Origin: a virus
Taxonomy: Duplodnaviria > Heunggongvirae > Uroviricota > Caudoviricetes
DNA: 6,567 bases
Reading direction: 5' to 3' (one strand)
Virus record (IMG/VR): IMGVR_UViG_2645727604_000023
Position numbers and translations under genes: made by a program
Notes under the pieces: model-generated
What the model saw: the letters and a program-made list of their open reading frames with translations, nothing else
Database searches by the model: none
What the model was told of the DNA's origin: nothing
Shown: positions 1 through 6,567 of the stretch, piece after piece
Layout: the number at the start of each line of letters is the position of its first letter
Position numbering within the stretch: the stretch's first letter is position 1

Positions 1-405
1 ATGGATCAGGTCGTTGTTTTTCAAAAGATGTTTGAGCAAGTGAGAAAAGAGCAAAACTTCTCCTGGTTTTATTCAGAATTAAAACATCACCGTATTGCAC
101 ATTACATTTATTATCTGGCTACGGATAACATCAGAATTATTACTCACGATGACACGGTTTTATTATTAAGAGGAACCAGGAACCTGTTAAAAGTTAGTAC
201 AACCAAGAACCCTGCTAAAATAAAAGAGGCCGCATTGCTTCATATTCGCGGAAAATCTACATTTCGGGAATACTGTTCAACACTGGCAGGCGCTGGCGTT
301 TTCCGGTGGGTTACTGATGTTAATTATAACAAACGCAGTTACTACGCCATTGATAATACGCTTTTATATATTGAAGATGTAGAAAATAATAAACCATTAA
401 TCTAG
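1..405 (+). CDS. DUF1398-family small protein (YcgX/YbcV/YdfO-like), function unknown
   Basis: 134-aa ORF beginning at window position 1 (upstream context not visible). The protein resembles the E. coli DUF1398 paralog family from memory, not from a search. AT-rich, on the chromosomal side of the icd-fragment junction. Confidence 0.6.
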   Translation: MDQVVVFQKMFEQVRKEQNFSWFYSELKHHRIAHYIYYLATDNIRIITHDDTVLLLRGTRNLLKVSTTKNPAKIKEAALLHIRGKSTFREYCSTLAGAGVFRWVTDVNYNKRSYYAIDNTLLYIEDVENNKPLI

Positions 406-612
406 CTAAAGTTGGGAGCTTAAGAAATGCTTCATAATTCAGTAAGGCATTAGCATAATGGAAATAAAAGTGCAGAGACCATCCCTATGGATGATTAATA
501 CTGTCTTTTTATTGCCCCCCATAAATAATCACCAGACCAATACGATCAAATTGATATTTGAAATGTGTTCACTTGACTTTTGATACGTTATTTTATAACG
601 GTTAACATATTT

Positions 613-653
613 ATAAAAACAACGGGCGTGTTATACGCCCGTTACAGTTTTTA
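613..653. terminator. Bidirectional rho-independent terminator (icd 3' end, and possibly the convergent upstream gene)
   Basis: Perfect 9-bp stem aacgggcgt (621-629) / acgcccgtt (635-643) with a 5-nt loop. It is flanked by an A-run on one side (ataaaaac, 613-620) and a T-run on the other (gttttta, 647-653), so each strand sees hairpin plus U-tract. It lies 14 nt beyond the icd-fragment stop. Confidence 0.55.
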
Positions 654-666
654 ACGCATGCAGAAA

Positions 667-831
667 TTACATATTCTTGATGATCGCGTCACCAAACTCT
701 GAACATTTCAGCAGTTTAGCGCCTTCCATCAGACGTTCGAAGTCATAGGTTACGGTCTTCGCATTGATTGCGCCTTCCATACCTTTAACAATCAGGTCAG
801 CCGCTTCAGTCCAACCCATATGGCGCAGCAT
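667..831 (-). pseudogene. icdC: Displaced 3' fragment of isocitrate dehydrogenase (icdC-like), last 54 codons plus stop
   Basis: Minus-strand translation gives [54 protein letters not shown], recognisable as the Icd C-terminus. The reading frame has no upstream continuation: sequence past 831 is unrelated AT-rich DNA. Confidence 0.8.
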
Positions 832-840
832 TAGTTAGAT
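820..840. other. Prophage/chromosome junction (attR side) inside icd
   Basis: Icd-coding homology ends abruptly at 831/832; on the minus strand the codon expected upstream of MLRH is replaced by unrelated AT-rich sequence. e14 is known to integrate in the 3' end of icd. Confidence 0.55.
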
Positions 841-889
841 GACTAAATCATAACTATTTGACATAGCAACATAATTTTACTAATTTGCA

Positions 890-926
890 TATAACTCATT
901 AGCTCTTAGCATTTCTATAACTCATT
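890..926. repeat. Direct repeats tataactcatt (890-900 and 916-926) in the AT-rich prophage arm
   Basis: Exact 11-bp direct repeat 26 bp apart, with a third ataact copy at 850-855, within 100 bp of the att junction. Candidate integrase arm-type or other protein-binding sites; function not demonstrated. Confidence 0.3.
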
Positions 927-1064
927 GATTATAAACATGTGTTTTTGAGTTTTGATAACCATTTTTAGCATAAAAATAGCTGTTAACATTTGCAGAAATT
1001 AAGATCAGAGAAAATTTTTACCCTGTAGGGTATTACGTCTTAAATGTGACTTTAATAAACAATT

Positions 1065-1898
1065 TTATTTCTGTAATCGGTTTATATTAACGTAAAGCAT
1101 CTCGATTAGTTCTTTTGCATTTTTACTATAGTGTAATTCTCTATGACAATTCGGACAAAGGGCAACACAGTTATCTGTTGTATCAGCACCACCTGAAGAC
1201 AGAGGAATTACATGATGCACTTCCAAATATGGGTTTCCATCATTTAAATAAAACGGAGCATTTTTACCACAGTTTTCACATATACCTTTACTTTGCTGTA
1301 AAATCCAAGCTTTTACCATCGGGTCTCGAACATAAACTTTTTGTAGTCTTTCTACCTCAACTGGTTTCCTGGAGCCCTCGGGTTGACTCAACGTTTTCTT
1401 AATTAATTTACTAACCCTCATATTCAGAAGCGATTCATCATCTGTAGGCTGTGAAAGCTCTGATAGTTCTCCACGTATTATAGACGCCCAAAAACTGTCA
1501 CTATAAATTCCTGGAACATTTATCAATATTCGTTTCGTTCTATTGCCGGAAGGAATTTCCTTTCTCCCCGTACGACTAAAATAAGCCTGATAACCACACA
1601 TCTTCAAGCGTATATCGCGGGGGCTATTACCAATCAAAGTAAAATATTCACCAGGATGGATTTTTCTTTCATCCAAAGAATGCATATGTTTTCTGACTGA
1701 TGATGACGCCAGATATACTACGACTTGGGATACACCAGAATCAACCAACCGTTCAATGATATAATCAAGAGCGATATTGTAATCTTTGTTTCTGTCACCC
1801 GGCCCCCACGACTCAAGGATTAGACCATAAACACCATCCTCTTCACCTATCGAGCACTCAGCTTTCAGTTCAATTCCATTATTATCAAAAACATGCAT
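1065..1898 (-). CDS. mcrA: McrA, 5-methylcytosine-specific (Type IV) restriction endonuclease with C-terminal HNH nuclease
   Basis: 277-aa ORF with N-terminus MHVFDNNGIELKAECSIGEEDGVYGL. C-terminal Cys/His HNH motif CENCGKNAPFYLNDGNPYLEVHHVIPLSSGGADTTDNCVALCPNCH. Size and sequence match my recollection of E. coli McrA; position next to pin at the prophage end also fits. Confidence 0.9.
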   Translation of the reverse strand: MHVFDNNGIELKAECSIGEEDGVYGLILESWGPGDRNKDYNIALDYIIERLVDSGVSQVVVYLASSSVRKHMHSLDERKIHPGEYFTLIGNSPRDIRLKMCGYQAYFSRTGRKEIPSGNRTKRILINVPGIYSDSFWASIIRGELSELSQPTDDESLLNMRVSKLIKKTLSQPEGSRKPVEVERLQKVYVRDPMVKAWILQQSKGICENCGKNAPFYLNDGNPYLEVHHVIPLSSGGADTTDNCVALCPNCHRELHYSKNAKELIEMLYVNINRLQK

Positions 1899-2004: not shown

Positions 2005-2559
2005 TTATTTATCCTCTGCAGGAAACCTCTTATACAAAGTTGACACACCAACATCATAGATAATCGCCACCTTCTGGCGAGGAACTCCTGATGCAATTAA
2101 TCGTCCGGCCTGTGCCCATTGTTCTGGTGTAAGTTTGGGACGACGTCCACCAATTCGCCCCTGTGCGCGAGCAGCTTCCAGTCCAGCTTTTGTTCGTTCA
2201 ACAATCAGTTCACGCTCCATTTCAGCCAGGGCACCCATCACATGAAAGAAAAAGCGTCCCATTGGTGTGCTGGTATCAATTGAATCCGTCAGACTACGAA
2301 AGTTGATGCCTCGTTCGCGCAACTCCTCCACCAACACGACAAGATGCCGCATACTACGCCCCAGCCGATCCAGCTTCCAGACAACCAGAGTGTCACCTGC
2401 CGATAATGTCCTGAGCAGTTTTTTCAGTCCCGGCCTTTCGGACTTTGTGCCGCTTATCTTGTCTTCAAAAATCAGCTCGCATCCTGCACAGTTCAGCGCA
2501 TTACGTTGTAGATCTGTGTTCTGGTCATTTGTTGATACGCGTACATAGCCAATAAGCAT
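2005..2559 (-). CDS. pin: Pin-type serine DNA invertase (Hin/Gin/Cin/Pin family)
   Basis: 184 aa from the start MLIGYVRVSTNDQ, which has the catalytic-serine motif of serine recombinases, and a C-terminal HTH (GVPRQKVAIIYDVGVSTLYKRF). A strong SD (GGGGGAG) sits about 5 nt upstream of this ATG. The ORF track's longer 2005-2595 version starts at an upstream ATG with no SD. Confidence 0.9.
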   Translation of the reverse strand: MLIGYVRVSTNDQNTDLQRNALNCAGCELIFEDKISGTKSERPGLKKLLRTLSAGDTLVVWKLDRLGRSMRHLVVLVEELRERGINFRSLTDSIDTSTPMGRFFFHVMGALAEMERELIVERTKAGLEAARAQGRIGGRRPKLTPEQWAQAGRLIASGVPRQKVAIIYDVGVSTLYKRFPAEDK

Positions 2560-2585: not shown

Positions 2586-2975
2586 ATGATGCCATTTGCT
2601 CGTTATTTCTGCATTTTCATAAACGTTGGTTTGGGAGAATTATCTCTGGCTGGCACTGCATCGGGTGTCATTGGCCTGAATGGGTATGTAACGATCCCGT
2701 TAATTATTTCAGGTTCCCGGAGAACACTGATTATTCAGTGGGGGCAGGCGAGATTTGGTGGGTCTGGTGGTGAAGATGCCGGATATCTTAACGATTTTCC
2801 TTTTGCCTTTCCGTCAGCATGTTATGGAATGATAGTTAGTCATGTGGGGCATACACCTTCAGGCGCAGGAATCCTGTCGGCTTCTGCAATTACATCAAAT
2901 CAGTTCCGCGGTTTTTCAAGCATAGCGACTGCTGCAAACGCTGTATTAGGTCGTTATATCGCTATAGGGGTGTAA
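2586..2975 (+). CDS. Promoterless alternative tail-fibre C-terminal cassette (Sv'-like), silent in this orientation
   Basis: The ORF crosses the left inversion site, whose conserved core encodes GLGE (codons 15-18). From the crossover the frame continues for 111 codons to a TAA that is coupled to the next gene (TAATATG). It has no plausible independent start context, so the functional unit is probably the portion from about 2628 onward, fused to the constant fibre N-terminus after inversion. Confidence 0.6.
   Translation: MMPFARYFCIFINVGLGELSLAGTASGVIGLNGYVTIPLIISGSRRTLIIQWGQARFGGSGGEDAGYLNDFPFAFPSACYGMIVSHVGHTPSGAGILSASAITSNQFRGFSSIATAANAVLGRYIAIGV
2614..2639. repeat. Left inversion crossover site (hix/gix-like 26-bp site)
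   Basis: Minus strand reads TTCTCCCAAACCAA-CGTTT; its first 14 bp are identical to the right site at 4498-4511 in inverted orientation, and 18 of the first 19 bp match. It fits the invertase-site pattern TTnnnnAAACC-NN-GGTTTnnnnAA and lies immediately upstream of pin. Confidence 0.75.
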
Positions 2976-2976
2976 T

Positions 2977-3414
2977 ATGTTTTATAGTCCATCTTTAAAC
3001 ATTTTTGTGAATCCTGCACTTAAGGATGATTACATTAATGCAAATTCATGGCCAGATGATGCTCTGGCTGTCAGTGATGATGTTTATAATGAATTTGCAA
3101 TCAATACGCCTCCAGATGACAAAATTCGTGTTGCAGGAAAAAATGGATTACCCACATGGGCACTAATACCTCCACCATCACATGAAGAACTTATTCAACA
3201 GGCAGAATCAGAAAGGCAATTATTGCTTAATCAGGCCAACGAATACATGAACAGTAAGCAATGGCCCGGTAAAGCCGCTATTGGTCGTCTGAAAGGTGAT
3301 GAACTGGCGCAATATAATTTGTGGCTGGATTATCTGGACGCACTGGAGCTGATCGATACTTCCGGTGCGCCAGATATTGAATGGCCTACGCCTCCGGCAG
3401 TTCAGGCCAGATGA
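2977..3414 (+). CDS. Tail-fibre assembly protein (Tfa/U'-like), partner of the silent cassette
   Basis: 145-aa ORF with SD AGGGG 6 nt upstream. Its C-terminus LDYLDALELIDTSGAPDIEWP resembles the conserved C-terminal motif of caudoviral tail-fibre assembly chaperones and the C-terminus of the convergent gene at 3386-3979. Confidence 0.75.
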   Translation: MFYSPSLNIFVNPALKDDYINANSWPDDALAVSDDVYNEFAINTPPDDKIRVAGKNGLPTWALIPPPSHEELIQQAESERQLLLNQANEYMNSKQWPGKAAIGRLKGDELAQYNLWLDYLDALELIDTSGAPDIEWPTPPAVQAR

Positions 3415-3979
3415 CATCCGGCGCTGTGCTGGTATCTGTTGCCGTCACCGCGTCAATGTAATCCAGCACAGCGTTAAGTCGGGTGTTTTCTGGCTGCGTC
3501 AGCTTCCGCCCAGCCTGTAATTTCAGTTGAATCAGACTGATGGAAGCCATTGCAGCATCAATCAGCGACTGGCGCTGTGCTTCTGCCGCTTCTACTGCGG
3601 CGCTATGCTGTGCCTCGGTATCCGTCACCCATTTCTCACCATCCCATTTATCGTATGGCGTTAACGGTGAAAGCGTGACATAACCGTCTTTGATGGCACC
3701 GATATAATCCACTGTAACAGCTGCGCCATTTTCAGTTGAGTAAACGGTCTCATTGCGATGGTCTTCTTCATGGCTCCATCCCTTACCCGTAAATACTGCC
3801 ACTTTTCCCGGGATGTTTTCGCCCGGGTCAATACCAGTGGAACAGGCGGGTATACTTACGCCAGTATTAATATATTCATCAGACCAGCCGGTATATTCAT
3901 ACGTTACTGCATTATAATAAAAACAACGCATATCGCCCGGCACTGTAGCCAGCCAATTTTCATCAAAAACAGGTATCAT
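3386..3979 (-). CDS. Tail-fibre assembly protein (Tfa/U-like), expressed-orientation partner
   Basis: 197-aa ORF; its start overlaps the tail-fibre stop (TAATG); SD GAGGG upstream. C-terminus LDYIDAVTATDTSTAPDVIWPELPEA is the Tfa C-terminal motif. Its 3' end overlaps the convergent tfa' gene by 29 bp. Confidence 0.8.
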   Translation of the reverse strand: MIPVFDENWLATVPGDMRCFYYNAVTYEYTGWSDEYINTGVSIPACSTGIDPGENIPGKVAVFTGKGWSHEEDHRNETVYSTENGAAVTVDYIGAIKDGYVTLSPLTPYDKWDGEKWVTDTEAQHSAAVEAAEAQRQSLIDAAMASISLIQLKLQAGRKLTQPENTRLNAVLDYIDAVTATDTSTAPDVIWPELPEA

Positions 3980-4800
3980 TATTTAGCCCTCACCAGAAAG
4001 TTGAATGCAATATTTCGTGGACGGGTTTCTGTATCTACATTTCCACTAATTTCACCATAACGTTTAACACTACGAGAGCTAAGAGCTCGTAGTGAGGAAG
4101 GCACATTAAGACCGGGTTCGTCCGTTTTAACTATTCCCCCGTCACCGTATGTAGCCAGTATTCCTGGGTTTACTCCTTCCCGTGCACTTCCTGCGGCAAG
4201 CCCGTCCCCCGTCCACAATTCCATATTGTGTGCATGATCCATAATTGTGTGTGATTGCCCTGAAAGTAGGGTACGTCCGACATCAATCCCGCGCCCATCA
4301 TCCCAGATACGAATGAAATCACCCCGTGCGTCAGGTAATGCTAGCGCCGGAAACACTTTCGCCAGCACAGGGTAATCAGTGGCAGAGAATTTCGCGCCGT
4401 TGAACTTCAAAAACACCATACTGGACCAACTGTCGATTACAGTATTTGGCATTGCGGCGGACGGCCAGAAGAACGGAACGCCAATACCTGGAGCACCTTC
4501 TCCCAAACCAAGGTTTTCGAGAGCCGTTTTCACCGTGCCATCCGATTTGATATCGCCAAACGGATTCTTGCGGCTTAACAGCAGCGCACGAAGCGCGGTA
4601 AGCAGCTGGTCATGCCGCCCCTTCTCCAGGCTGGCACCGGATGCCTCCACCACGCTGCAAAGCTCCTCCTGCAACATATCAAAGTAGTCATCATCAAGAT
4701 CGGTGGCAGGCGTGCCGGTCTGGGGGTTACCACGGGTAAAACCGTTCTTACCCGCGCCGAACTTATCCTTCTGCGCGGTTTTCGTGTCTATACGATGCAT
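3979..4800 (-). CDS. Tail-fibre protein: about 100-aa constant N-terminus (Mu S-like) fused to the currently active variable C-terminus
   Basis: 273-aa ORF with GGAG SD. The N-terminal stretch [17 protein letters not shown] resembles the Mu S / P2-type fibre N-terminus. The right inversion site lies in-frame at codons 95-101 (ENLGLGE). The C-terminal part carries a tail-collar-like motif (NG...YP.L...[19 protein letters not shown]). Confidence 0.8.
4498..4523. repeat. Right inversion crossover site (hix/gix-like), inside the tail-fibre coding sequence
   Basis: TTCTCCCAAACC-AA-GGTTTTCGAGAG, an imperfect dyad around a central AA. It is the inverted partner of 2614-2639. Confidence 0.75.
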
Positions 4801-4803
4801 GGA

Positions 4804-5388
4804 TTACTCCGGATATTTAAAAATTACGTAGGTATGCGACGGGCAGAGTTTGTTAAGCACACACTCGACAACGGTGTCGCCCCAGATACGCAGCGCGGAA
4901 TCACAGGGATCGCCACATGTCATCCAGGTGGTGTTGGTGGCGGCTGGCATGTTGACCTGCCAGTAATACCGCCATTCAGGCGCATTCACAGCGTCAGTAC
5001 AGGCCGATGAGCAGGTGAACGTGCTTTTGTCGTATCGCGTGATGGTGGCATCTGGCCTGCCCAGGGCAGCAAGCTGTGCAAGATAAAAATCCTCGTTGAT
5101 GCCGCCCGCCAGGTTAACCTTCGCATCCAGCCGTTGCTGACGCTGGCGAAGGGTCTGCGCTCCCGCCGGAATACATTCATCCGGCAGACCGCACAGACGC
5201 TCCCAGCGGTTTATCAGTTCAGTGGTGGTGCGCGGATCCAGCTCCCGCATCAGGGCATCCGCACGCTGATGAACGCGGGTTAATGACGGTGCCGCACCGG
5301 CAATCGCCGGATCGCTGGCTGACCACGCCGGACCGGGGGGCAACAGTGCCGACAACAGACGGATGTAATCATCGTTTGTCACGTCCAT
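4804..5388 (-). CDS. Mu gp48-like tail/baseplate protein (YmfQ-like, DUF2313 family)
   Basis: 194-aa ORF directly upstream of the tail-fibre gene, with a 3-nt gap. Its start overlaps the stop of the upstream J-like gene. Family assignment is from position and recalled similarity, not a search. Confidence 0.75.
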
Positions 5389-6440
5389 GAAATCGTCCCC
5401 AGAACCGCCAGTTCATTTTTCGCAATGGAGATATTGTCTGCCGGTGCAAGCAACTGATGGCTATATTCCCCGTTCGCACCGGAAATCGCCTCACTGATAC
5501 GCGATACCTTCAGTTCTCCCTGCGGATAACCATCACGCAGAAGAAACGAACGCAACTCCGCGGTGATGGCAGCCCGTATTTCCGGTGTGTCCGGCGTCAC
5601 GCGGATATGAAAATCCACCGTATGCGCCACCGGCCTGAATACATACAAATCAGAGCCTGCCACCGGGGCCAGTGGCACAATATGTTGTCTTGCCGCCGTT
5701 TCCGTTGATTCTTCCGGAATGGGATTAATCAGGTCACTGCTGGCAATCATCACACCGACAGTTCCCGTTCCCATCCAGTGACGGTATGTCCATGCGCGGG
5801 TAATGCCGGGCACTTCTTTAGCCCAGACGACATAGTCCACGTCAGCCCCGCCCTGAGGCGTCCAGTAATACCGCTCAATGACGCGGGCGCGCCACGTTTC
5901 CAGATCTTCAGTATCAAATCCGCCTGTAAGGGTGTCAGCCACACCGGAAGACGGCAGACCATTCACCGGCGTGACCAGGATTAATGACGTACCGTCGTCA
6001 GCGTTACCGACCGCACCTGAACTTGAGCAGGCGATCGGCACGCGCAGGACACCACCGGAGCTGGTTGCATCGGCAGTTGCCGTGTACTGAACCAGGTCAT
6101 CGCGCTGAATAACACTCCCGGCGGTCACCTTCAGGCCATCATCGCTGACACCTTCCCAGCGCATATACCCGCTGGCAGCCGTGGCCCCCTTGCGCGGACA
6201 CCGTTTCATCGCAGCATGTCGCGCCAGCCAGGACTCATCGCACAGGTCAGGCAGCATGTTCATTGCCAGATAATCGATGTAACCGTAAACCGTATGCAGC
6301 GCCGCCGCATACACCTTTGCCCGCACGTCTTCATCCATGCGCCGGAGCGTGTCGCTGACGTCCAGCCTGGCGAATAAATCGTTACGGAGCATACTGATAT
6401 TTTCTGCCAGCGTCGGGCGCTGAAATTCACTGTCCGCCAT
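5379..6440 (-). CDS. Baseplate J-like protein (Mu gp47 / P2 gpJ family)
   Basis: 353-aa ORF on the minus strand in a GC-rich region. Located between the gp46-like and gp48-like genes, as in Mu. The many small overlapping ORFs in the track here are out-of-frame artefacts. Confidence 0.75.
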
Positions 6441-6567
6441 GCGTTATCGCACTCCACAGATCATCAAAAGAAATCATTACCGGTCCGTCACGACGCCAGA
6501 GAGTGATACTGTTACCCAGTTCATTAATCCCGGTGCGGCGGATATCCAGATCAATACGGGACACCAC
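6427..6567 (-). CDS. Partial CDS, C-terminal 46 codons of a gp46/GPW-like baseplate protein; 5' end lies beyond the window
   Basis: Hand translation of the minus strand from 6567 gives an open frame [46 protein letters not shown] with the stop at 6427-6429. It overlaps the start of the J-like gene by 14 nt. The function is inferred only from its position in the Mu-like order. Confidence 0.45.
   Translation of the reverse strand: MVSRIDLDIRRTGINELGNSITLWRRDGPVMISFDDLWSAITHGGQ

What the first reader, a model, noticed from the sequence alone, without database searches (positions are those of the whole stretch)
1065..1898. Type IV restriction gene mcrA carried as cargo between the invertase and the att junction
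McrA cleaves DNA carrying modified cytosines and so acts as a prophage-borne defence against modified-DNA phages and plasmids. It occupies the position that mom (a DNA-modification gene) occupies in Mu, immediately beyond the invertase at the genome end. The gene is visibly more AT-rich than the GC-rich tail module, suggesting separate acquisition.
Basis: partly seen in the sequence, partly recalled or inferred. Interest (0 to 1): 0.45.

Follow-up and report, generated by a model that had tools for sequence, protein, structure and literature searches.

The report
Known mcrA gene on e14 prophage

Summary
The ORF at 1065-1898 (minus strand, 277 aa) is real. Its protein is 100% identical to E. 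coli K-12 McrA (EcoKMcrA) and 276/277 identical to crystal structure 6GHC. It lies between the Gin-family invertase pinE (2005-2559) and the prophage/host junction at ~831/832, where the displaced icd 3' end (icdC, 667-831) begins. This is the K-12 e14 arrangement, reverse-complemented.

The gene and its spacers (832-2004) are 34% GC, against 54% for 3400-6567. GC3 is 0.295 against 0.62 in the baseplate genes (chi-square p = 4e-18). Sister prophages with 96-98% identical pinE lose similarity exactly at the pin stop codon and carry other cargo there: PD-T4-3, Septu plus PDC-S15, a type I-A retron, or unknown genes. So separate acquisition is well supported.

The Mu analogy holds for position only. 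The baseplate genes (gp47, gp48) and Gin are homologous and in the same order, but McrA is unrelated to Mom.

All seven nucleotide differences from K-12 mcrA are synonymous, so the gene is under purifying selection.

All of this is already known (McrA on e14 since 1989; structures 2018-2019). The only modest addition is that the slot beyond the invertase behaves as a defence-biased cargo hotspot.

The parts
1065..1898 (-). mcrA coding sequence (277 aa plus stop), the type IV modification-dependent restriction endonuclease EcoKMcrA
   Evidence: ORF list. 276/277 identical to PDB 6GHC. 100% amino-acid identity to K-12 McrA, with 7 synonymous nucleotide differences. PADLOC mREase_IV E = 6.5e-203. 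RefSeq annotation in the closest genomes.
1470..1898 (-). Codons 1-143: N-terminal specificity domain (NEco), which reads Y5(h)mCGR without base flipping
   Evidence: Identical to PDB 6R64/6T21/6T22 chains over residues 1-143. Domain boundary and DNA-contact residues from PMC7145662. S30, S65, R97 and N119 are nearly invariant in a 25-member family alignment. No Pfam model covers this domain.
1131..1280 (-). Codons 207-256: HNH (beta-beta-alpha-Me) nuclease core with two CxxC zinc motifs (C207/C210, C248/C251) and H228, H229, H252, H256
   Evidence: Pfam PF01844 at residues 207-256. Residue positions listed. H228A, H229A, H252A and H256A variants gave no cleavage products (PMC6182155).
1899..2004 (-). 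106-bp spacer (24.5% GC) between the pinE stop and the mcrA start; presumed site of the mcrA promoter and ribosome-binding site, not demonstrated
   Evidence: GC content. 100% identical to K-12 and PSS-08-2. Only weak promoter-like matches, no more than in shuffled sequence. Similarity with other pin-bearing prophages stops at 2004.
832..1064 (.). 233-bp spacer (25.8% GC) between the mcrA stop and the att junction: the prophage arm of the attachment site. Contains a terminator-like hairpin at 1019-1032(-) and a TATAACTCATT direct repeat at 890-900 and 916-926
   Evidence: GC content. Hairpin. Direct repeat. 97.4% identical to K-12 e14. The K-12 e14 feature ends at the equivalent position.
667..831 (-). 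icdC, the displaced original 3' end of the host icd gene; its upstream edge (~831/832) is the prophage/host junction
   Evidence: Pfam Iso_dh positions 301-348. Annotated as partial isocitrate dehydrogenase or icdC. Matches to uninterrupted icd end at window 825-831. e14 excision rejoins icd to icdC (PMC4444293).
2005..2559 (-). pinE, a Gin/Pin-family serine DNA invertase, co-directional with mcrA and immediately upstream of it
   Evidence: Resolvase + HTH_7 domains. 79% identical to Mu Gin. Annotated pinE.
2621..4516 (.). Invertible tail-fibre segment bounded by 19-nt inverted repeats (2621-2639 and 4498-4516), carrying alternative tail-fibre C-termini and tail-fibre assembly genes. Context for the slot, not part of mcrA
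   Evidence: Inverted repeat, 95% complementary. Gp53-like_C and two Caudo_TAP ORFs on opposite strands.

Best explanation
The feature is mcrA, the single-gene type IV (modification-dependent) restriction system EcoKMcrA. It is carried as an accessory gene ('moron') at the right end of an e14-type temperate phage integrated into the host icd gene.

Shown here: the encoded protein is identical to the K-12 enzyme.

Shown in the literature for that identical protein:
- It is a dimer.
- The N-terminal NEco domain recognises fully methylated or hydroxymethylated Y5(h)mCGR sites without flipping bases.
- The C-terminal zinc-containing HNH domain cuts the DNA.

Inferred:
- The host's own DNA is spared because E. 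coli Dcm methylates CCWGG, not CpG. No partner methyltransferase is therefore needed, and one gene is a complete defence module.
- The gene is expressed from the lysogen and protects the host, and so the prophage, against incoming CpG-modified DNA.
- It was acquired separately from the Mu-type tail module. It sits in a cargo slot beyond the invertase that holds other defence genes in sister prophages.
For: Identity:
- 276/277 identical to 6GHC, and residues 1-143 identical to 6R64.
- 100% amino-acid identity to K-12 McrA.
- PADLOC mREase_IV match end to end.
- HNH domain.
- H228, H229, H252, H256 and both CxxC motifs present.

Function of the identical protein:
- Nuclease activity, loss of activity in the His-to-Ala variants, and restriction of T4gt and of M.HpaII-carrying plasmids (PMC6182155).
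- Y5(h)mCGR recognition without base flipping (PMC7145662).
- Compatibility with Dcm (PMC3874153).

The gene is maintained: all 7 nucleotide differences from K-12 across 834 nt are synonymous (P about 2e-5 if all substitutions are equally likely, about 5e-4 for transitions only).

Location:
- Same order as K-12 e14.
- McrA has been mapped to e14 (PMC2847215), and e14 excision gives the McrA-minus phenotype (PMC4444293).

Separate acquisition:
- GC and GC3 contrast.
- Similarity to other pin prophages ends at the pin stop codon.
- Sister prophages with 96-98% identical PinE and 98% identical baseplate proteins carry PD-T4-3, Septu + PDC-S15 or unknown genes instead.
- A Salmonella prophage with a Mu-type baseplate carries a type I-A retron in the same slot.
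- 329 of the 331 E. coli genomes with near-full-length mcrA show this same icdC-mcrA-pinE arrangement.
Against: - Nothing here shows expression in this strain. The promoter scan finds no more promoter-like sites than in shuffled sequence, and none is convincing in the 106-bp spacer.
- In vitro, the enzyme is weakly active and only moderately selective for methylated DNA.
- Wild-type T4 (glucosylated) and lambda were not restricted.
- A genome-wide phage-resistance screen saw no strong McrA effect with its phage panel (PMC7553319). The range of natural phages it stops may therefore be narrow.
- Low GC alone would not prove foreign origin. That conclusion rests mainly on the comparative evidence.
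Confidence: 0.93

Rival explanations
1. McrA acts mainly as an 'epigenetic immunity' or host-killing module rather than a phage barrier. It would kill cells that acquire a CpG methyltransferase gene, for example on an incoming restriction-modification element, and so exclude such elements from the population.
For: This behaviour is described for the other E. coli methyl-specific nuclease, McrBC (abstract of PMC2614495, listed). A review of the concept that mentions McrA is listed in the same call (PMC2993543). A plasmid carrying the M.HpaII gene is restricted by McrA-expressing cells.
Against: This is not exclusive of phage defence. T4gt restriction is shown directly. I did not read the McrBC papers beyond their abstracts, and nothing in the sequence separates the two roles.
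Confidence: 0.15
2. The HNH protein serves the phage's own life cycle, for example as a terminase-associated HNH nuclease needed for packaging, rather than being a defence cargo.
For: HNH endonucleases next to terminase genes are common in HK97-like phages (general knowledge). The related full-length phage record has HK97-style head genes.
Against: - mcrA lies at the opposite end of the prophage from the terminase genes.
- The related phage record already has a separate small 'homing endonuclease' gene beside its terminase (L003 19292-19642).
- Sister prophages with nearly identical tail and invertase genes lack mcrA altogether.
- The protein is identical to a characterised restriction enzyme.
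Confidence: 0.02
3. The gene is a decaying remnant on a defective prophage with no current function.
For: K-12 e14 is a defective prophage with several pseudogenes. A truncated, IS-flanked McrA-like fragment exists on a Klebsiella plasmid.
Against: The ORF is intact with all catalytic and zinc-binding residues. All 7 differences from K-12 are synonymous. In this window the neighbouring baseplate J gene is intact, unlike the K-12 pseudogene jayE.
Confidence: 0.02

Closest known systems
EcoKMcrA (mcrA/rglA, b1159) of E. coli K-12 cryptic prophage e14
   Same: Identical protein. 99.2% identical gene. Same neighbours (pinE on one side, icdC on the other). Same AT-rich flanking spacers, with the mcrA-pinE spacer 100% identical.
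   Different: - The host is not K-12. The host flank lacks ymgK-iraM.
- The displaced icd end differs at 7 of 165 nt.
- The adjacent tail genes are intact rather than pseudogenes.
- The closest complete genome is strain PSS-08-2, at 98.7% over the window.
Phage Mu com-mom module at the right end, beyond gin
   Same: Same position relative to homologous genes: gp47 and gp48 baseplate genes, an invertible tail-fibre segment, a Gin-family invertase, then cargo at the genome end. Same transcriptional direction. Both cargoes concern DNA modification in the restriction contest.
   Different: - No sequence similarity between McrA and Mom.
- Mom modifies the phage's own DNA to escape restriction, whereas McrA attacks modified incoming DNA.
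- Mu has a com translational activator and a late promoter annotated upstream of mom. No equivalent is evident here.
- Mu's end is a transposon end, not an att junction.
ScoMcrA (Streptomyces coelicolor) and other HNH type IV enzymes
   Same: Related C-terminal HNH nuclease domain (PDB 5ZMM, E = 7e-11 over residues 183-275).
   Different: The N-terminal sensor domains are unrelated (PMC3874153). The NEco domain of this protein is rare: 43 clusters among 1.84 billion representatives.
Defence-gene hotspots of temperate phages (P2 hotspots; PD-T4-3, Septu and retron cargo)
   Same: A fixed position flanked by conserved phage genes holds different AT-rich defence systems in different relatives. 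Invertases have been noted in a P2 hotspot (bioRxiv 10.1101/2024.10.15.618418).
   Different: Here the slot lies between the invertase and the prophage end in phages with a Mu-type baseplate. It also carries non-defence cargo: glycosyltransferase + acetyltransferase, or an EAL-domain protein. I did not find this particular slot described, but my literature search was shallow.

Membership tests
EcoKMcrA (type IV modification-dependent restriction endonuclease) | Full-length sequence correspondence to the characterised enzyme | tested here: met
   276/277 identical to 6GHC. 277/277 identical to K-12 MG1655 McrA. PADLOC model covered 1-277 of 277.
EcoKMcrA (type IV modification-dependent restriction endonuclease) | N-terminal NEco specificity domain with the DNA- and methyl-contacting residues (S30, W31, R36, S65, S66, R94, R97, K113, N119, R120) | tested here: met
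   Residues 1-143 are identical to the crystallised NEco. Residue roles from PMC7145662. S30, S65, R97 and N119 are at least 90% conserved in the family alignment.
EcoKMcrA (type IV modification-dependent restriction endonuclease) | C-terminal HNH beta-beta-alpha-Me nuclease with a Cys4 zinc site and catalytic histidines | tested here: met
   PF01844 at residues 207-256. CxxC at 207 and 248; His at 228, 229, 252 and 256. The mutants are inactive.
EcoKMcrA (type IV modification-dependent restriction endonuclease) | Restriction of 5mC/5hmC-containing DNA in vivo by this strain | not testable with these tools
   Shown for the identical protein in other strains (T4gt and M.HpaII-carrying plasmid; PMC6182155). 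Expression in this host is unknown.
e14-type prophage integrated in icd | Right end abuts the displaced icd 3' end (icdC), with pinE and mcrA as the last genes | tested here: met
   Gene order and junction.
e14-type prophage integrated in icd | intE/xisE and lambdoid regulatory genes at the other end | not testable with these tools
   The window ends inside the baseplate genes. The related record ON470584 has an integrase, excisionase and cI-type repressor.
Mu com-mom right-end module | Cargo located just beyond a Gin-family invertase that follows homologous baseplate and tail-fibre genes | tested here: met
Mu com-mom right-end module | Cargo homologous to Mom (and Com) | tested here: not met
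   BLASTP of McrA against Mom gives a best E-value of 1.0. So this is a positional analogue, not a member.
Phage 'moron' (independently acquired accessory gene) | Composition distinct from neighbouring phage genes | tested here: met
   38% GC (GC3 0.295) against 57-58% GC (GC3 0.61-0.64); p = 3.6e-18.
Phage 'moron' (independently acquired accessory gene) | Present or absent, or replaced, between otherwise closely related phages, with sharp boundaries | tested here: met
   Similarity ends at the pin stop codon. Alternative cargoes. McrA follows pin only in Escherichia/Shigella loci among 79 Enterobacterales pin loci.
Phage 'moron' (independently acquired accessory gene) | Own promoter and terminator | tested here: inconclusive
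   No convincing promoter: 8 sites found against 5.5 +/- 2.7 in shuffles. A weak terminator-like hairpin lies 33 nt after the stop, at 1019-1032.

The most novel reading that the evidence does not exclude
The position between the Gin/Pin-family invertase and the prophage end, in temperate phages with a Mu-type baseplate and tail-fibre module, is a recurrent defence-biased cargo hotspot. It holds McrA, PD-T4-3, Septu + PDC-S15, a type I-A retron and restriction-modification genes.

The unannotated AT-rich genes found there would then be candidate new anti-phage genes:
- the 341-aa family in Citrobacter and Mangrovibacter;
- the 299 + 200-aa pair in E. coli NADC1036;
- the 244-aa membrane-like protein in L024;
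- the 666-aa protein in L066 with faint STAND NTPase matches;
- the DUF4411 + ImmA-like pair in Trabulsiella.

The mcrA gene itself offers nothing new.
Probability: 0.4. Interest if true: 0.35.

Novelty: already known. Interest (0 to 1): 0.12.

Why it matters
For the scan, the value is in closing the item. The gene, its enzyme mechanism, its crystal structures and its place on e14 are all established, so no follow-up on mcrA itself is warranted.

It matters practically only as a strain property. A host carrying this prophage will restrict CpG-methylated or hydroxymethylcytosine DNA. That affects cloning, transformation with methylated DNA, and susceptibility to non-glucosylated hmC phages.

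The comparative by-product is of modest interest: the slot beyond the invertase swaps defence systems between near-identical prophages. It is a cheap place to look for uncharacterised defence genes.

Tried and rejected
- **Mehta, Casjens & Krishnaswamy 2004.** I could not retrieve this canonical e14 analysis by PMC id or DOI. I cite it only through the reference list seen, and cannot say whether it already discusses composition or the Mu comparison.
- **Promoter and terminator scan.** It gave nothing above background for an mcrA promoter.
- **Rfam scan of 400-2700.** It found only a sub-threshold STnc150 match in the host flank and no RNA element near mcrA.
- **Word-indexed protein search with the N-terminal domain.** It returned only 8 partial or divergent hits and did not list full-length E. 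coli McrA. I therefore relied on the exhaustive search instead.
- **Klebsiella plasmid homologue.** It is a truncated fragment beside an IS element and says nothing about native context.
- **Packaging-HNH and pseudogene readings.** Considered and rejected (see rivals).
- **The 95-aa antisense ORF at 1115-1402(+).** I treated it as a by-product of the AT-rich antisense strand of a conserved gene and did not pursue it.
- **Many invertase loci from other genera are not the same slot.** A conserved ~390 + 171-aa pair follows pin in 13 loci and a ~160 + 422-aa pair in 9 loci. Both pairs have a GC content similar to the neighbouring genes. I did not annotate them. By size they may be tail sheath/tube and UmuD/UmuC-like genes, which is inference only.
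Full report
**1. The observation**

The window contains an uninterrupted ORF at exactly 1065-1898 on the minus strand (277 codons plus stop). Several independent results identify the protein:
- A Pfam HNH domain at residues 207-256 (E = 3.5e-15).
- An end-to-end match to the PADLOC model for type IV methyl-directed restriction enzymes (E = 6.5e-203, model positions 1-277 of 277).
- A match over all 277 residues to PDB 6GHC, '5-methylcytosine-specific restriction enzyme A', with one difference (K195 here, E in the crystallised construct). Residues 1-143 are identical to the chains of 6R64/6T21/6T22.

Aligned with E. coli K-12 MG1655, the gene differs at 7 of 834 nucleotides, and the protein is 100% identical. 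RefSeq annotates the matching stretch as mcrA in the closest complete genomes and in K-12 (b1159).

**2. Surroundings**

The window is the right end of an e14-type prophage plus host flank, reverse-complemented relative to MG1655. In window order:

| Feature | Coordinates | Evidence |
|---|---|---|
| ycgX | 1-405 (+) | |
| Small ymgL-like ORF | 458-583 (+) | |
| icd terminator hairpin | 619-645 | |
| icdC, the displaced original 3' end of icd | 667-831 (-) | |
| Spacer, 25.8% GC | 832-1064 | |
| mcrA | 1065-1898 (-) | |
| Spacer, 24.5% GC | 1899-2004 | |
| pinE (79% identical to Mu Gin) | 2005-2559 (-) | |
| Invertible tail-fibre segment, bounded by 19-nt inverted repeats at 2621-2639 and 4498-4516 | 2621-4516 | |
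| Tail-fibre gene | 3979-4800 (-) | |
| ymfQ | 4804-5388 (-) | |
| Baseplate J | 5379-6440 (-) | |

Matches to uninterrupted icd genes in prophage-free genomes stop at window positions 825-831. K-12 annotation ends the e14 feature at the equivalent base. The att junction is therefore at ~831/832, and mcrA is the last gene of the prophage.

The literature agrees:
- McrA maps to the excisable element e14 (PMC2847215).
- Precise excision of e14 removes mcrA and rejoins icd to icdC (PMC4444293).

**3. Composition and separate acquisition**

| Segment | GC | GC3 |
|---|---|---|
| mcrA | 38.1% | 0.295 |
| 832-2004 block | 34.4% | n/a |
| 3400-6567 | 54.2% | n/a |
| ymfQ | 58.3% | 0.64 |
| Baseplate J | 57.1% | 0.61 |

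The GC3 contrast between mcrA and the baseplate genes gives chi-square 75.5, p = 3.6e-18. The contrast with pinE is weaker (GC3 0.43; p = 0.003). The variable part of the invertible segment is itself only 43-46% GC, so the 'GC-rich tail module' is not uniform.

Comparison with related prophages is stronger evidence than composition. With a query spanning icdC-mcrA-pinE, prophages elsewhere in E. coli that carry a 93-96% identical pinE lose similarity exactly at query position 1405, which is window 2004, the base after the pin stop codon. Their annotated regions show different genes in the same place:
- Two unknown proteins, then intS, in strain NADC1036.
- An HNH protein, an AAA ATPase and an FRG-domain protein in QML220601. 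PADLOC calls these Septu PtuB, Septu PtuA and the candidate system PDC-S15.
- A GIY-YIG protein in O157 Sakai prophage Sp1 and in strain 21B8. PADLOC calls it PD-T4-3 (E = 2e-140).

In NADC1036 and 21B8 the PinE, YmfQ and baseplate J proteins are 96-98% identical to those of the window. The cargo has therefore been exchanged between otherwise near-identical tail modules.

**4. Distribution**

- mcrA matches 340 of 5,426 complete E. coli genomes, 331 of them at 80% coverage or more. All copies are chromosomal, and most sampled hits are K-12 laboratory derivatives.
- 329 genomes have the full icdC-mcrA-pinE arrangement, so the gene is essentially always in this context.
- A close pinE is present at 80% coverage or more in 1,212 genomes.
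- Among 79 invertase loci from one genome per species across Enterobacterales, McrA follows pin only in Escherichia and Shigella.
- A deposited record, Escherichia phage vB_EcoM-689R6, carries invertase and mcrA together with a Mu-type tail, HK97-style head genes, lambdoid regulatory genes, an integrase and an excisionase. Full-length e14-type phages with mcrA therefore exist.
- Two 15.19-kb 'plasmid' records with mcrA have the size of excised e14.

**5. Mechanism**

What is shown rests on published work with the identical protein:
- EcoKMcrA has a structural zinc and a catalytic metal in an HNH fold.
- The H228A, H229A, H252A and H256A variants gave no cleavage products.
- The enzyme restricts a plasmid carrying the M.HpaII gene, and phage T4gt (hydroxymethylcytosine). 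It does not restrict wild-type T4 or lambda (PMC6182155).
- The N-terminal domain (residues 1-143) binds fully modified Y5(h)mCGR without base flipping. It uses pockets around S30/W31, with contacts from R36, S65, S66, R94, R97, K113, N119 and R120 (PMC7145662).
- Dcm methylation (CCWGG) is compatible with McrA (PMC3874153).

All these residues are present here.

All seven differences from K-12 are synonymous, although only 21.5% of random substitutions in this gene would be (33.7% for transitions). This gives P of about 2e-5 to 5e-4, and indicates purifying selection.

What is inferred: the gene is expressed in the lysogen of this strain, and the benefit is exclusion of CpG-modified incoming DNA. 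I could not identify a promoter. The scan finds 8 promoter-like sites against 5.5 +/- 2.7 in shuffles, and none is convincing in the spacer. A weak terminator-like hairpin lies at 1019-1032, 33 nt after the stop.

Some points temper the biological importance:
- In vitro activity is weak.
- A large phage-resistance screen saw no strong McrA effect.

**6. The Mu comparison**

Mu's right end runs: N (DNA circularization), P, gp45, gp46, gp47, gp48, S, U, the inverted U'/S', gin, com, mom, end. The closest genome to the window has, in the same order: DNA circularization protein, baseplate assembly protein, baseplate assembly protein V, GP46-family protein, baseplate J/gp47, YmfQ, tail fibre, tail-fibre assembly, the inverted alternative pair, pinE, mcrA, end.

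Homology backs the names:
- Baseplate J versus Mu gp47: 30% identity over 360 residues (E = 2e-41).
- YmfQ versus gp48: 30% (E = 5e-16).
- PinE versus Gin: 79%.

McrA and Mom are unrelated (best E = 1.0). The statement 'occupies the position that mom occupies in Mu' is therefore correct as a positional analogy within a homologous module. It is not a family relationship. Mu's end is also a transposon end, not an att site.

**7. The slot more broadly**

I extracted the genes in the 4.5 kb after pin in all fetched loci and annotated the AT-rich ones.

Defence-related calls:
- A complete type I-A retron (RT, ATPase, HNH) behind a Mu-type baseplate in a Salmonella prophage (L038).
- A type II restriction-modification specificity gene in a Pectobacterium replicon (L067).
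- An ImmA/RmrA-like gene next to a DUF4411 gene in Trabulsiella (L018; Pfam for DUF4411).

Non-defence or unknown cargo also occurs:
- A glycosyltransferase plus an acetyltransferase (L042).
- An EAL-domain protein (L039).
- A C92 peptidase-like protein (L028).
- A 666-aa protein with faint STAND NTPase matches (L066).
- A 341-aa family shared by Citrobacter and Mangrovibacter (L019 and L035, 46% identity).
- Proteins with no match at all.

Many other pin loci are different contexts, with conserved gene pairs after pin whose GC content is similar to the neighbouring genes. The slot is best described as a moron site with a clear defence bias. This fits the known idea of phage defence hotspots. 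A preprint notes invertases in a P2 hotspot. My sample is small and hand-picked for low GC, so it does not measure enrichment.

**8. The N-terminal domain family**

An exhaustive search of 1.84 billion cluster representatives with residues 1-143 found only 43 at E <= 1e-3. Of 25 aligned longer members:
- 19 carry Pfam HNH.
- 9 match HNH_2, overlapping in part with the HNH matches.
- 2 carry NOV_C.

The experimentally important positions S30, S65, R97 and N119 are at least 90% conserved. Pfam has no model for this domain. The closest relatives outside E. coli are 63-70% identical proteins from Raoultella and Klebsiella. This says the sensor domain is rare. It does not identify a donor for the AT-rich gene.

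**9. Verdict**

Everything about mcrA itself is already known:
- Mapping to e14 (Raleigh et al. 1989; reference seen).
- The e14 analysis of 2004 (reference seen; the paper itself was not retrievable).
- Biochemistry and structures in 2018-2019.

Novelty: already known. Interest: low (0.12). The most novel reading left open is that the invertase-to-end slot is a defence hotspot whose unknown occupants are new defence genes. I put that at about 0.4 probability, with moderate interest if true.

Noticed in passing
window 583-667 (between the ymgL-like ORF and icdC): The host flank lacks the ymgK-iraM segment found in K-12 and in the closest genome, PSS-08-2, whose match spans about 860 bp more than the window. 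The same iraM-less flank (ycgX, a 126-nt ORF, then icdC) occurs in strains AVS0754 and JA0072, which carry a different icd-integrated prophage with sitABCD next to icdC.
   Followed up: partly
window 2621-2639 and 4498-4516; pin ORF 2005-2595: 19-nt inverted repeats (AAACGTTGGTTTGGGAGAA / TTCTCCCAAACCAAGGTTT, 95% complementary) bound a ~1.9-kb invertible tail-fibre segment with alternative fibre C-termini and two assembly genes on opposite strands. The mechanical pin ORF extends in frame to 2595, but the annotated start that aligns with Gin is 2559.
   Followed up: partly
window 505-653 (+): Sub-threshold Rfam match to the Hfq-binding sRNA family STnc150 (31 bits against a gathering score of 60; E = 3e-4), in the host intergenic region just upstream of the icd terminator hairpin.
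   Followed up: no
window 890-900 and 916-926: An exact 11-nt direct repeat, TATAACTCATT, spaced 26 nt apart, in the AT-rich prophage arm next to the att junction. These may be integrase arm-type binding sites. A two-copy short repeat in 26%-GC DNA could also be chance.
   Followed up: no
window 1470-1898 (McrA residues 1-143); proteins P0009-P0050: The NEco modification-reading domain is rare: 43 clusters among 1.84 billion representatives. No Pfam model covers it. In relatives it is fused not only to HNH but also to HNH_2 and, in 2 of 25 cases, to a NOV_C domain.
   Followed up: partly
L003 (ON470584.1) 35567-37278 and 37404-43299: The deposited 'phage' record vB_EcoM-689R6 includes host genes (icd, rluE, nudJ, mnmA, hflD), so it is a prophage plus flank rather than a packaged genome. 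Next to its integrase, where K-12 e14 has lit/ymfD/ymfE, it carries a DUF262 protein that matches the PADLOC NsnA model (E = 8.5e-32). Both ends of e14-type prophages therefore carry swappable defence cargo.
   Followed up: partly
plasmid records OR902851.1 and OR902858.1 (hits H85, H86): Two ~15.19-kb E. coli 'plasmid' records carry mcrA. Their size matches excised circular e14 (15.2 kb in K-12), so they may be excision products rather than plasmids. In OR902858 mcrA is split into three annotated pieces.
   Followed up: no
window 1314-1316 (McrA codon 195): The crystallised EcoKMcrA sequence (6GHC) has E at position 195. Both this window and K-12 MG1655 have K, so the PDB construct carries a substitution relative to the natural protein.
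   Followed up: yes
window 667-831 versus 832-2004: The displaced host icd end is more diverged from K-12 (95.8%) than the adjacent prophage DNA (97.4-100%). This fits different histories for the host and prophage sides of the junction.
   Followed up: no
L019 and L035 (first ORF after pin); L004 2822-4805; L024, L028, L066 (first ORF after pin): Unannotated AT-rich genes occupy the slot after pin in other prophages: a 341-aa family shared by Citrobacter and Mangrovibacter (46% identity), a 299 + 200-aa pair in E. coli NADC1036, a 244-aa membrane-like protein, a C92-peptidase-like protein, and a 666-aa protein with faint STAND NTPase matches. Only the last two have any Pfam match, and none matches PADLOC.
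   Followed up: partly
window 1115-1402 (+): A 95-aa TTG-started ORF lies antisense to mcrA. I regard it as a chance ORF on the antisense strand and did not test it.
   Followed up: no
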